DNA of 64,000 bases. Source: Escherichia coli. Lineage in GTDB: Bacteria > Pseudomonadota > Gammaproteobacteria > Enterobacterales > Enterobacteriaceae. The first letter of the stretch is position 1. Every line of letters starts with the position of its first letter. Below, one piece after another: positions 42,001 to 45,000 of the stretch. The DNA lies in assembly GCF_011045215.1 (NCBI RefSeq), contig NZ_CP049201.1. The stretch is one strand, 5' to 3'. A program made the position numbers.

Positions 42001-45000
42001 GACTGGCACAATCCGCTCCGCCGTATGGCAATACCATTGCCCGTCAGCCAGTTTCCGCCAGCGACTTTGCCCTGCAATTCATGCCCGGAAAACGCTATCG
42101 GGTCATTGACGTCATCCATAACGAATTGATTACGCACTCCCGCTCCAGCGTCTACAGCGAAAATGGTTTTGATCGCGATGATGTGTGCTTTATTGCCGTA
42201 CTTGAGCGTTACGGGCAACGGCTGGCTCCGGCTTGTGGTTTGCTCGGCGGCTTTGGCCTGAATGAAGGTGCGCTGGCTGCGACGGTCAGCCATGACAGCC
42301 ATAATATTGTGGTGATCGGTCGCAGTGCGGAAGAGATGGCGCTGGCGGTCAATCAGGTGATTCAGGATGGCGGCGGGTTGTGCGTGGTACGTAACGGCCA
42401 GGTACAAAGTCATCTACCGTTGCCCATTGCCGGGCTGATGAGCACCGACACGGCGCAGTCGCTGGCCGAGCAAATTGACGCCTTGAAAGCCGCCGCCCGT
42501 GAATGCGGTCCGTTACCCGATGAGCCGTTTATTCAGATGGCGTTTCTTTCTCTGCCAGTGATCCCCGCGCTAAAACTAACCAGTCAGGGGCTATTTGATG
42601 GCGAGAAGTTTGCCTTCACCACGCTGGAAGTCACGGAATGAAAAAAAGACCGTATTAGCTGATTTACGGAAAATATGTACTCCACAAGCGTCAATATCCG
42701 ACGAGGCCTGGGAAAAGATAATGTTGTCTGATGAAAGTAATCAGCAGCACATCCGTGAGGCTATTGTGGCGATGGAACGCAATAACCAGAACAATTACTG
42801 GGAAGCGTTAGGCAAGGTTGAATGCTCGGATATGTAGACGTGAAGCCGCAGCTTCACGTCATACATTTAGCACTTAACGTGAACGTACATCGGGAATAAT
42901 TAAATCACCGCGCAGAACATATGAACCCAGCATCGTCTGCGTCTTCTCGTTAAGCCAACTGACTATGCGGGCGGCCATTTCGTCCAGCGAATATTCTATC
43001 GCCGGAATGGTCGGTATCCCCGGAAGATGAACAGTACCCGCCAGACTAAATACCATAATGTCCTCAGGAACAGATTTATTAAACGCCTGCAATTGCGGTA
43101 TCACCCGCTGCGCTTGCTGTTCATCAGCAACTAATAACGCATTAAAGTTCAGTGTTGAGGCATTATTTAGCAGCTCCTGCAAAGCCACTGAGGAAGAGAT
43201 TGCTTCCATAAAAACCAGATTACGGTTAAAGGGAAGAAAGTTTTTCTCCAGCGCGTGTTTATAGCCCAGTAAGACCTGGTCAGAAAATCCCATACCGTGT
43301 GGGTGGATGAGGGCGATTTGGCGTCTGTTCTGACTTATCAGATAGTTACAAGCGGTTTCAGTCGCGAATATGTGATCGAACTGAATACTGTTAACATCAT
43401 TACCCGTCTCAAGGCAGTCCACCAGTATCACGTTTTCCTGATGAATATTCAGTGGGAAACGCGCACCAATAATCAGTACGTCATCACACAAACCACAGCT
43501 CAGCTCATCAAGGGCGTTCTTTACCTCGGCTTTATTGCTGGCGAAGCGAAGAAGTAGATGTTTTTGATGCTGGCTGAGATGTTTTTCCAGAGCGTAAAGA
43601 TAACCGGTGGTCTGATTAATGTTTTCCTGAGCACAAATTACACCGATACAGCCCGTAGATTGCGTCAGCAGTGACTGCGCAATGACATTGGGACGATAGT
43701 TTAGCTCTTCGACGGCTTTCAATACCGCGAGACGGCTGGCTTCTTTAACACCACGCGATCCGCTCAACACCCGAGAAACCGTCGCTTTTGAAACGCCAGC
43801 CAAACGCGATACATCATTGATAGTAGACATCATTCTCCCCTGACAGAGCGGCCCTGGCTCCCACAATCCTGAATTCCTGTTGGCTTAAATATTAGCCGTT
43901 CGCAGTATAACTGTTTCCGTTTTCTAATGGAAACCGATTTTCCATGGCATCTCAAAACTGAGCTAATAATGATAAAAATGTGAACAGAATCGAAATAATA
44001 ACGCGACTTTATAGCGAAATCTGATAGCCGTCACAGTTTATGTTTCCATGAATGGAAACCGGTTTCCAAATGATATCAAATCAATTGCGAAATAGATTTT
44101 TACATTCAGAGGATGTGTCAGATGGTCAGGATTATGTTGTGTTGCTCTGCGGGGATGTCAACCAGTCTGCTGGTGAAAAAAATGGTCGAGGCCGCAGAAA
44201 GCAGAGAGCTACCGGTAGAGATAGATGCCTACGGAGTTTCCGAATTTGATATTCAGTTTCCAAAATATCAGGTGGTGCTACTCGGACCGCAGGTAAAGTA
44301 TATGTTAAACATGCTCGCAGAAAAGGCCGCCCCCCAGGGAATACCCGTAAAAGCCATTGATATGGCGGACTACGGAATGCAACGGGGTGACAAAGTGCTG
44401 GATTACGCTCTGTCGCTCATTGCAGCGACACATTAGAAAGGTGTCATTATGAGTTCGTTATATCAATCAATGGTTGCCGTTATTGAACAATCCATCACAC
44501 CGCTTGCCGGGAAGCTGGGGCAGCAAAAATATGTGATTGCCATCCGGGACGGTTTTACTGCCGCTCTACCGTTTATGATCATCGGTTCGTTTATGCTGGT
44601 GTTCATTTTCCCACCGTTTTCGGCTGAAACAACCAACAGTTTTGCCCGAGGCTGGCTGGATTTCTCCGCTACCTACCGTGAACAGCTAATGTTGCCATTT
44701 AACCTCAGCATGGGGGTGATGACTTTCTTCATCTCAGTGGGGATCGGTGCCAGCCTTGGGCGACAGTTTAATCTCGATCCGATTATGTCTGGCTTGCTGG
44801 CATTTATGGCATTTTTACTGGTCGCAGCGCCTTATGCTGACGGCAAAATATCGACTCAATATCTTTCCGGGCAAGGTATTTTCACTTCGCTGATTACCGC
44901 GATTTATGCCACTCGTGTATACGCCTGGTTAAAACAACACAACGTGACAATCCGCTTACCCAAAGAAGTCCCTACTGGGGTGGCGCGTTCCTTTGAGATC

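What the first reader, a model, noticed from the sequence alone, without database searches (positions are those of the whole stretch)
43928..44068. Palindromic operator candidates in the regulator-PTS divergent promoter
A perfect 16-bp palindrome TGGAAACCGGTTTCCA, overlapping a second palindrome GTTTCCATGAATGGAAAC, and an upstream imperfect copy TGGAAACCGATTTTCCA are the likely binding sites of the adjacent LacI-family repressor. Two operators about 110 bp apart could support repression by DNA looping.
Basis: seen in the sequence. Interest (0 to 1): 0.3.

Follow-up and report, generated by a model that had tools for sequence, protein, structure and literature searches.

The report
Operators of a LacI-type sugar-operon repressor
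Two short symmetric DNA sites between a repressor gene and a sugar-uptake operon are almost certainly that repressor's binding sites, one on each of two back-to-back promoters, which is an ordinary bacterial on/off switch with a few neat details.

Summary
The window is E. coli chromosome. The locus is a ~6 kb accessory island between adeD and uhpT, found in 25 of 5426 complete E. coli genomes. It holds a LacI-family regulator gene divergent from a PTS IIB-IIC / GH1 6-phospho-beta-glycosidase / IIA / LamB-type porin operon.

In 77 orthologous intergenic regions from different Enterobacterales species, two sites are the most conserved 16-mers (entropy 0.14 vs 1.04 bits). They are the 16-bp palindrome O_R (44053-44068) and the 17-bp site O_L (43928-43944).

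O_R directly abuts a hexamer with a -10 conservation pattern (TAnnnT), so it fills the spacer of the PTS promoter. O_L's left half is the -35 box of the regulator's own promoter. O_L keeps one extra central base in all 77 species, like natural lacO1.

The "second palindrome" arm (44042-44048) is unconstrained and is probably chance. Looping is neither needed nor shown: the regulator lacks LacI's tetramerisation tail, and each operator has its own promoter. The ~125.5 bp spacing (about 12 helical turns) does not exclude it.

Verdict: an ordinary, well-supported, experimentally untested operator pair. It is a new member of a known kind.

The parts
42874..43830 (-). LacI-family regulator gene (318 aa). 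Its HTH is AGVSKATVSRVLSG and its hinge is YRPNVIAQSL, with the hinge leucine (residue 54).
   Evidence: ORF and RefSeq annotation of identical loci. Pfam PF00356 and PF13377. No NCBIfam equivalog reaches its cutoff. It has no C-terminal extension relative to CcpA, AscG or the LacI core.
43904..43909 (-). Inferred -10 hexamer (TATACT on the minus strand) of the regulator's promoter P_reg. The inferred TSS is about 43897.
   Evidence: AGTATA lies upstream of O_L in all 77 species, at 17 bp in 64, 18 bp in 12 and 16 bp in 1. Consensus scan hit TTTCCA-18-TATACT. It is the best minus-strand promoter in 58 of 77 species.
43928..43933 (-). Inferred -35 hexamer (TTTCCA on the minus strand) of P_reg. 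It is identical to the left half-site of O_L.
43928..43944 (.). O_L, a 17-bp operator: TGGAAACC-G-ATTTTCCA. It is two half-sites with one extra central base and spans about -47 to -31 of P_reg.
   Evidence: Found in 77 of 77 species with the 17-bp spacing. Positions 2-6, 9, 12 and 14-16 are invariant. Mean entropy is 0.138 bits. No SNP falls in it among 6 E. coli variants.
43979..43994 (.). CRP-like box 1 (TGTGA-N6-TCGAA), centre 43986.5. It lies roughly midway between the two inferred TSSs, at about -89.5 and -94.5.
   Evidence: The TGTGA/CGTGA half and the ATC of the other half are conserved. Assignment to CRP rests on consensus resemblance only.
44020..44035 (.). CRP-like box 2 (TCTGA-N6-TCACA; most species yTTGA-N6-TCACA), centre 44027.5.
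   Evidence: The TCACA half is present in 75 of 77 species. Its centre is exactly 33 bp from the O_R centre in 77 of 77. This places it at -53.5 from the inferred TSS, which is not a canonical CRP activation position. Its role is unresolved.
44042..44048 (.). Judged non-functional.
   Evidence: Entropy 1.55 bits across 77 species. Altered in E. coli strains 19KM1831 (GTCTCCA) and SCPM-O-B-8794 (GTTTCCG).
44053..44068 (.). O_R, a 16-bp perfect palindromic operator TGGAAACC|GGTTTCCA. It spans about -28 to -13 of the PTS promoter, that is the spacer between -35 and -10.
   Evidence: Found in 77 of 77 species. Positions 1-6 and 8-15 are invariant, position 7 is C or A, position 16 is A or G. Mean entropy is 0.14 bits. 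It is duplicated together with its -10 hexamer in 8 Yersinia species.
44069..44074 (+). Inferred -10 hexamer of the PTS-operon promoter P_pts (AATGAT here, TATGAT in most species). The inferred TSS is about 44081.
   Evidence: The hexamer directly after O_R has T1 in 72/77, A2 in 70/77 and T6 in 77/77, while positions 3-5 vary (TATGAT, TATAAT, TATCAT, TAAAGT, TATGGT and others). This is the conservation pattern of a -10 element. It is the most frequent top-scoring plus-strand promoter.
44122..44436 (+). PTS lactose/cellobiose-family IIB gene, first gene of the regulated operon.
44449..45780 (+). PTS IIC gene.
   Evidence: TIGR00410, 367 bits, above its cutoff.
45801..47198 (+). GH1 glycosidase gene, probably a 6-phospho-beta-glycosidase.
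   Evidence: The closest solved structures are 4b3k and 5foo (6-phospho-beta-D-glycosidase).
47195..47497 (+). PTS IIA gene.
47697..49076 (+). LamB-family carbohydrate porin gene, last gene of the island.
   Evidence: PF02264, 250 bits. Annotation.

Best explanation
O_R (44053-44068) and O_L (43928-43944) are the two operators of the adjacent LacI-family repressor. Each sits on one of two back-to-back sigma-70 promoters.

A repressor dimer on O_R occupies the spacer between -35 and -10 of the PTS-operon promoter, ending one base before the -10 hexamer. This keeps RNA polymerase off. A dimer on O_L covers the -35 box of the regulator's own promoter, giving negative autoregulation.

O_R is an ideal even palindrome centred on CG, the step into which LacI-family hinge helices insert their leucine. 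O_L has the same half-sites pushed apart by one base pair, as in natural lacO1 compared with the symmetric lac operator. O_L is therefore probably the weaker site, so the regulator gene would shut off only at higher repressor levels.

The inducer is probably the phosphorylated beta-glycoside made by the PTS. It would release the repressor from both sites. Two conserved CRP-like boxes between the operators probably add catabolite control.

Shown: the sequences, their positions, their conservation, the regulator's family and its lack of a C-terminal tail. Inferred: binding, promoter and TSS positions, relative affinities, the inducer and the CRP role.
For: - The locus is divergent: a regulator gene (PF00356 + PF13377) faces a IIB-IIC-GH1-IIA-porin operon. 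This arrangement is conserved in 76 other species.
- Both sites are present in 77 of 77 intergenic regions. They are the two most conserved 16-mers there, at 0.14 bits against 1.04 bits for the rest.
- The central CG is invariant in O_R (77/77) and near-invariant in O_L (76/77 and 77/77). This fits the family rule that 96% of LacI-family motifs are even palindromes, most with a central CG (PMC4052901).
- Site positions are typical for the family. O_R lies 61 bp and O_L 106 bp upstream of the respective start codons, within the 30-140 bp range that holds most sites.
- O_R is followed directly by a hexamer with the T1/A2/T6 conservation signature of a -10 element.
- O_L's left half is the -35 of a TTTCCA-17/18-TATACT promoter whose -10 is invariant.
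- Eight Yersinia species duplicated the O_R plus -10 module as a unit, 57 bp apart.
- The motif occurs only in this intergenic region across 81 loci and the 64-kb window.
- The recognition helix is identical to that of AscG. The K-12 ascG-ascF intergenic region carries the same 12-bp core, GAAACCGGTTTC.
- SNPs among E. coli carriers avoid both sites.
Against: - No binding, footprint, TSS or expression data exist for this locus, and no paper in the searchable library holds the operator sequence.
- The promoter assignments are computational. The window's own -10 (AATGAT) and the -35 region of P_pts are weak.
- The inferred TSS puts CRP-like box 2 at -53.5, which is not a standard CRP activation position. 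Either the TSS or the role of that box is therefore misjudged.
- O_L's conservation is confounded with its role as a -35 box.
- The absence of SNPs in the operators within E. coli is weak evidence. By my own rough estimate, about 2 would be expected by chance.
- The same 12-bp core is shared with asc sites, so a paralogue such as AscG could also bind here.
Confidence: 0.78

Rival explanations
1. Repressor bound at O_L and O_R interacts across about 125 bp, possibly helped by CRP-induced bending between them, so that both promoters are repressed cooperatively through a DNA loop.
For: - There are two operators in one regulatory region.
- The centre-to-centre distance is 124.5, 125.5 or 126.5 bp in 76 of 77 species, close to 12 helical turns at 10.5 bp per turn.
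- Two bend-inducing CRP-like boxes lie between the operators. From general knowledge, this resembles lac O3-CRP-O1.
- From general knowledge, dimeric GalR loops two operators about 113 bp apart with the help of HU.
Against: - The regulator (318 aa) ends where the LacI core ends. It has no counterpart of the LacI tetramerisation heptad at residues 340-357.
- Each operator already overlaps its own promoter, so looping is not needed to explain either site.
- The spacing varies over 3 bp with no compensating indels. All the variation lies in the O_L to box 1 segment, while box 2 to O_R is fixed at 33 bp.
- The whole intergenic region is length-constrained (287-297 bp outside Yersinia), so constant spacing is not specific to the operator pair.
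Confidence: 0.2
2. The overlapping inverted repeat GTTTCCA-TGAA-TGGAAAC (44042-44059) is a third functional operator that lets a second dimer bind next to O_R in E. coli.
For: - It is present in the window.
- Overlapping LacI-family sites are known in some regulons (PMC4052901).
Against: - The arm at 44042-44048 is the least conserved part of the region (1.55 bits).
- It is mutated in 2 of 6 E. coli variants.
- The 4-bp spacer has no central CG and the wrong half-site spacing.
- Its centre is 10 bp from the O_R centre, so two dimers would clash.
Confidence: 0.04
3. The sites are bound mainly by another LacI-family protein with the same recognition helix (for example chromosomal AscG or CelR) rather than by the adjacent regulator.
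For: - The HTH is identical to that of AscG.
- The 12-bp core GAAACCGGTTTC is shared with the asc intergenic region.
Against: - The sites co-occur with the adjacent regulator gene in 77 of 77 loci across many genera.
- The flanking positions at +/-7 and +/-8 (TG-G...C-CA) are invariant here but differ in the asc sites.
Confidence: 0.05
4. The palindromes are chance sequence features with no function.
For: About 1.2 perfect 16-bp palindromes are expected by chance per 64 kb.
Against: - Both sites are near-invariant in 77 species whose surrounding intergenic DNA has diverged freely.
- Their geometry relative to promoter elements is fixed.
Confidence: 0.01

Closest known systems
lac operators (O1, symmetric Osym, auxiliary O3) with LacI
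   Same: - Inverted-repeat operators recognised by an HTH plus hinge helix.
- One site is an ideal even palindrome (like Osym) and one carries an extra central base pair (like natural O1).
- An operator overlaps the core promoter.
- A CRP-like site lies between the two operators.
   Different: - The regulator here lacks the C-terminal tetramerisation helix.
- It is encoded divergently and appears to be autoregulated through its own operator.
- The half-site sequence is different (TGGAAAC).
- The inter-operator distance is about 125 bp, against 92 bp for O1-O3.
AscG and the ascG-ascFB divergent region of E. coli K-12
   Same: - A LacI-family repressor divergent from a beta-glucoside PTS / phospho-beta-glucosidase operon.
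- An identical recognition helix (AGVSKATVSRVLSG).
- Two intergenic palindromes with the same 12-bp core GAAACCGGTTTC.
   Different: - Only 26% overall identity, so it is not an orthologue.
- The PTS family differs (Lac/Cel IIB, IIC and IIA as separate proteins, against the Glc-family IIBC protein AscF).
- The operator flanks differ (TGG...CCA here).
- One site here has a conserved +1 spacing.
- That AscG binds those asc sites is taken from prior knowledge (Ishida et al. 2009, not readable here).
RegPrecise-type predicted LacI-family regulogs of Enterobacteriales (CelR, CelR2, PtsR; PMC4052901)
   Same: - Local regulons of one operon with one or two palindromic sites.
- Predicted sugar-phosphate effectors.
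- Identified by the same comparative logic used here.
   Different: - CelR (ECA3649, Ent638_3283) and CelR2 (y3949) have different sequences.
- 'PtsR' (Ent638_0983; 1 genome, 2 sites) could be the orthologue, but its sequence and motif were not available.
GalR OE/OI repressosome
   Same: A dimeric LacI-family repressor with two operators a little over 100 bp apart. It is a precedent for looping without a LacI-type tail.
   Different: - The gal operators flank the promoters and neither overlaps the core promoter.
- Looping there needs HU.
- Here each operator sits on its own promoter.

Membership tests
LacI/GalR-family operator | Inverted repeat of 16-22 bp, even length, with a central CG | tested here: met
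   O_R is TGGAAACC|GGTTTCCA, 16 bp and perfect, with the CG invariant in 77/77. Family rule from PMC4052901.
LacI/GalR-family operator | The same even spacing at every site of the regulon | tested here: not met
   O_L has 17 bp (one extra central base) in 77 of 77 species. Odd palindromes are reported for only 4% of LacI-family TFs, and spacing flexibility within a group is described as rare. O_L is therefore a non-canonical spacing variant, comparable to lacO1.
LacI/GalR-family operator | A cognate LacI-family TF with an N-terminal HTH and a hinge helix is encoded nearby | tested here: met
   PF00356 at residues 3-48 and PF13377. The hinge YRPNVIAQSL aligns with the LacI, CcpA and AscG hinges. 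The gene is adjacent and divergent in 77 of 77 loci.
LacI/GalR-family operator | [quoted passage not shown] | tested here: met
   The O_R centre is 61 bp upstream of the IIB ATG. The O_L centre is 106 bp upstream of the regulator ATG. Range.
LacI/GalR-family operator | Conservation of the site across orthologous loci (phylogenetic footprint) | tested here: met
   Entropy 0.14 bits against 1.04 bits. They are the two best 16-mers of the region.
LacI/GalR-family operator | Sequence-specific binding by the regulator, relieved by an effector | not testable with these tools
   Needs EMSA or footprinting, and inducer titration.
LacI-type looping system (tetramer bridging two operators) | A C-terminal tetramerisation helix on the repressor | tested here: not met
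   The protein has 318 aa. Its residue 275 aligns with LacI residue 289, so it ends near LacI residue 332, before the 340-357 heptad. The end-to-end alignment with 336-aa AscG shows no extension.
LacI-type looping system (tetramer bridging two operators) | Operators kept in helical phase | tested here: inconclusive
   The spacing is 124.5 to 126.5 bp in 76 of 77 species, about 12 turns. It still varies by 3 bp, and the whole region is length-constrained.
LacI-type looping system (tetramer bridging two operators) | An auxiliary operator with no promoter of its own, whose removal weakens repression | tested here: not met
   Both operators overlap inferred promoter elements of their own.
CRP-dependent promoter (class I or class II) | A CRP site centred near -41.5, -61.5, -72.5, -82.5 or -92.5 | tested here: inconclusive
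   Box 2 lies at -53.5 from the inferred P_pts TSS, invariantly in all species. Box 1 lies at about -94.5 and -89.5. The TSSs are inferred, not measured.

The most novel reading that the evidence does not exclude
A dimeric LacI-family repressor uses two deliberately different operator geometries: a tight 16-bp site on the operon promoter and a +1-spaced 17-bp site, conserved in all 77 species examined, on its own promoter. It also pairs them across about 12 helical turns and two CRP-bent sites, forming a gal-like repressosome without a tetramerisation domain. The invariantly placed CRP-like box at -53.5 would then act architecturally rather than as a classical activator.
Probability: 0.12. Interest if true: 0.45.

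Novelty: new member of a known kind. Interest (0 to 1): 0.25.

Why it matters
- It gives a confident, testable operator motif (TGGAAAmCGkTTTCC) and promoter map for an uncharacterised beta-glycoside PTS operon. The operon is widespread in Enterobacterales and rare in E. coli (25 of 5426 genomes).
- The conserved pairing of an ideal 16-bp site with a +1-spaced 17-bp site for one repressor is a clean natural case of operator-spacing tuning. It could be used to study affinity setting and autoregulation in the LacI family.
- The core shared with AscG sites raises a concrete cross-talk question for strains that acquire the island.
- None of this changes the general picture of LacI-family regulation.

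Tried and rejected
- Window-level enrichment of the half-site TGGAAAC: not enriched. The palindrome alone is not beyond chance, so the argument was moved to comparative data.
- Literature search for the operator sequence, for the operon, and for Ent638_0983: nothing found.
- The AscG footprint paper (PMID 19633077 / PMC2747900) is not held. I read the K-12 asc intergenic sequence directly instead.
- RegPrecise supplement: CelR and CelR2 are different proteins. The PtsR sequence is cut from the stored file.
- Alternative -10 candidates for P_pts were rejected. The evidence comes from inspection of the aligned rows and the hexamer tallies.
  - TATCAA/TATCCA at 44074: lacks a T at the sixth position.
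  - AATCAT at 44079: the sixth position varies between T, A, G and C.
  - TAGATT/TAACTT at 44093: the sixth position varies between T, A, G and C.
- The first-pass idea that CRP-like box 2 is a class I site at -61.5 was dropped once the -10 was fixed. The box lies at -53.5.
- An FNR-like reading of box 2 (TTGAT-N4-ATCAC) was considered. It also does not fit a -41.5 geometry.
- RNA hairpin or terminator reading of the palindromes: no terminator-like sites were found, and both sites lie upstream of the inferred TSSs.
- A Cra site was considered from memory. Its half-sites are one base pair closer to the centre, so it does not match.
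Full report
**Observation**

Reading 43700-44300 and a repeat search confirm all three sequences.
- TGGAAACCGGTTTCCA lies at 44053-44068. It is a perfect 16-bp palindrome centred on CG, here called O_R.
- TGGAAACCGATTTTCCA lies at 43928-43944. It is 17 bp, here called O_L.
- GTTTCCA-TGAA-TGGAAAC lies at 44042-44059. It is two 7-bp inverted arms around a non-symmetric spacer, sharing its right arm with O_R.
- The operators are 108 bp apart edge to edge and 124.5 bp apart centre to centre.

A perfect 16-bp palindrome on its own is not remarkable at this scale. The window has two, against 1.17 expected, and the second, at 8405, lies inside an ORF. The heptamer TGGAAAC is not enriched in the window. 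What is unusual is the clustering: 4 of its 8 copies fall within 141 bp. The full 16-mer with up to 3 mismatches occurs only at these two places.

**Context**

The window is E. coli chromosome.
- The sites lie in the 291-bp region between a LacI-family regulator gene (42874-43830, minus strand) and a plus-strand operon.
- The operon encodes PTS IIB (44122-44436), IIC (44449-45780), a GH1 glycosidase (45801-47198), IIA (47195-47497) and a LamB-type porin (47697-49076).
- The GH1 enzyme is closest to solved 6-phospho-beta-glycosidases.
- The whole ~6 kb block sits between adeD and a DUF1198 gene next to uhpT.
- It is present in only 25 of 5426 complete E. coli genomes.
- No NCBIfam equivalog model reaches its cutoff for the regulator.
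- The regulator differs from the RegPrecise CelR and CelR2 proteins.

**Comparative test**

A scan of one genome per species found 80 loci encoding 80-99% identical regulators. They come from Citrobacter, Enterobacter, Lelliottia, Leclercia, Kosakonia, Buttiauxella, Cronobacter relatives, Pantoea, Erwinia, Serratia, Hafnia, Yersinia, Pectobacterium and others.

In 76 of these loci the full divergent regulator/IIB arrangement could be extracted. The intergenic length is 287-297 bp, and 351-375 bp in Yersinia. The downstream gene order is conserved too.

In a MAFFT alignment of the 77 intergenic regions:
- Both O_L and O_R are present in every species.
- O_R positions 1-6 and 8-15 are invariant. 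Position 7 is C or A and position 16 is A or G.
- O_L positions 2-6, 9, 12 and 14-16 are invariant.
- Mean column entropy is 0.14 bits for each site against 1.04 bits for the rest of the region. The two sites are the two best-conserved 16-mers.
- The left arm of the "second palindrome" has 1.55 bits, so it is unconstrained.

Among six E. coli variants of the region, SNPs never touch O_L or O_R. They break the second-palindrome arm twice. A degenerate motif scan of all 81 loci plus the window finds the sites essentially only in this intergenic region. This points to a local regulon.

**Anatomy and mechanism**

PTS-operon promoter (P_pts):
- The hexamer directly after O_R (44069-44074) reads AATGAT here and TATGAT in most species.
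- It shows T1 in 72/77, A2 in 70/77 and T6 in 77/77. Positions 3-5 vary (TATAAT, TATCAT, TAAAGT, TATGGT and others). This is the conservation signature of a -10 element.
- It is the most frequent top-scoring plus-strand promoter.
- O_R therefore fills about -28 to -13 of P_pts, with the TSS inferred near 44081.

Regulator promoter (P_reg):
- On the other strand, TTTCCA (the reverse complement of O_L's left half) lies 17 bp (64/77) or 18 bp from an invariant TATACT.
- O_L therefore covers about -47 to -31 of P_reg, with the TSS inferred near 43897.

The simplest reading is two operators for two divergent promoters. Repression would work by occluding RNA polymerase, with negative autoregulation of the repressor gene.

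Eight Yersinia species carry a tandem duplication of O_R together with its TAnnnT hexamer, 57 bp downstream. This treats operator plus -10 as one functional module.

**The 17-bp site**

O_L is best described as TGGAAACC-G-ATTTTCCA: two good half-sites separated by one extra base. That spacing is kept in all 77 species while O_R keeps the even spacing.

Ravcheev et al. (PMC4052901) report three relevant points:
- 96% of LacI-family motifs are even palindromes, most with a central CG.
- Odd motifs occur in 4% of regulators.
- Spacing is usually constant within an orthologous group.

One regulator with a conserved even site and a conserved odd site is therefore a minor curiosity. The natural precedent, from textbook knowledge, is lacO1. 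It has an extra central base pair, and the symmetric operator lacking it binds roughly tenfold tighter. I infer that O_L is the weaker site, which would suit autoregulation. Its conservation is partly confounded with its role as a -35 box.

**Link between protein and motif**

- The regulator has the LacI HTH and the hinge helix with its conserved leucine. This is consistent with the invariant CG.
- It is only 26% identical to AscG overall, but its recognition helix (AGVSKATVSRVLSG) is identical.
- The K-12 ascG-ascF intergenic region contains TGAAACCGGTTTC and GTGACCGGTTTCA, the same 12-bp core.
- The invariant flanks (TGG...CCA) differ from the asc sites and may provide discrimination. Cross-talk with AscG in E. 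coli carriers is possible but untested.

**Looping**

Against looping:
- The protein (318 aa) ends where the LacI core ends and has no tetramerisation helix.
- Each operator has its own promoter, so looping is unnecessary.

For looping:
- The centre-to-centre distance is 124.5 bp (25 species), 125.5 bp (33), 126.5 bp (18) and 127.5 bp (1). That is about 12 helical turns.
- Two CRP-like boxes lie between the operators.
- Dimeric GalR is known to loop.

The variation lies entirely in the O_L to box 1 segment, with no compensation elsewhere. The whole region is length-constrained. I put functional looping at about 0.2.

**Unresolved**

- CRP-like box 2 (44020-44035) is exactly 33 bp from the O_R centre in 77 of 77 species. 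That places it at -53.5 from the inferred TSS, which is not a canonical CRP position.
- Box 1 (43979-43994) lies about midway between the two inferred TSSs.
- Either the TSS inference is off, or these boxes act in a non-standard way.
- Three conserved blocks are also unexplained: TTTCC at 43914-43918 in the P_reg spacer, CGAAATAGA at 44088-44096 (consensus CGCAATAAC) and TTTTTACAT at 44097-44105. The last two lie in the presumed 5' UTR.

**Verdict**

The operator interpretation is strongly supported by phylogenetic footprinting and promoter geometry, but binding is untested. The second palindrome is probably chance. Looping is optional and unproven. This is a new member of a very well-known kind of switch, and interest is modest.

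Noticed in passing
window 42631-49547: The regulator/PTS/GH1/porin block is a ~6 kb accessory island between adeD and uhpT, present in 25 of 5426 complete E. coli genomes. In strain A16 the annotation shows a truncated YicS-family pseudogene at its left edge. A DUF1198 gene lies at its right edge (49095-49547), in addition to the DUF1198 gene between the toxin-antitoxin pair and adeQ.
   Followed up: partly
L039, L057, L060, L061, L063, L065, L066, L075 (about 3703-3776 in each): Yersinia species carry a tandem duplication of O_R together with its adjacent TAnnnT hexamer. The copies are 57 bp apart, giving three operators in a 351-375 bp intergenic region.
   Followed up: partly
window 44020-44035: A conserved CRP-like box (yTTGA-N6-TCACA) lies exactly 33 bp from the O_R centre in 77 of 77 species. 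That is -53.5 from the inferred TSS, a non-canonical position. Its left half also resembles an FNR half-site (TTGAT).
   Followed up: partly
window 43914-43918 and 44088-44105: Three conserved blocks have no assigned role: TTTCC in the spacer of the regulator's promoter, and in the presumed 5' UTR of the PTS operon CGAAATAGA at 44088-44096 (consensus CGCAATAAC) and TTTTTACAT at 44097-44105.
   Followed up: no
L009-L033 (Enterobacter, Lelliottia, Leclercia group), equivalent to window 43944-43950: These species have an extra GTTTCCA half-site directly after O_L (TGGAAACCGATTTTCCGTTTCCA). It is absent from E. coli.
   Followed up: no
L080 (Pectobacterium versatile) and 11 other loci: The GH1 gene is missing between IIC and IIA in 12 loci. 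In L080 the IIB gene is also largely degenerate, yet both operators are retained.
   Followed up: partly
L082 2853-2866 and 2926-2939 (E. coli K-12 ascG-ascF intergenic region): Two palindromes share the 12-bp core GAAACCGGTTTC with O_R, and AscG has the same recognition helix as the island's regulator. Cross-regulation in strains carrying both is conceivable.
   Followed up: partly
window 8405-8420: This is the only other perfect 16-bp palindrome in the window (TGAACATTAATGTTCA). It lies inside a 335-aa minus-strand ORF (8230-9237) and is consistent with chance.
   Followed up: partly
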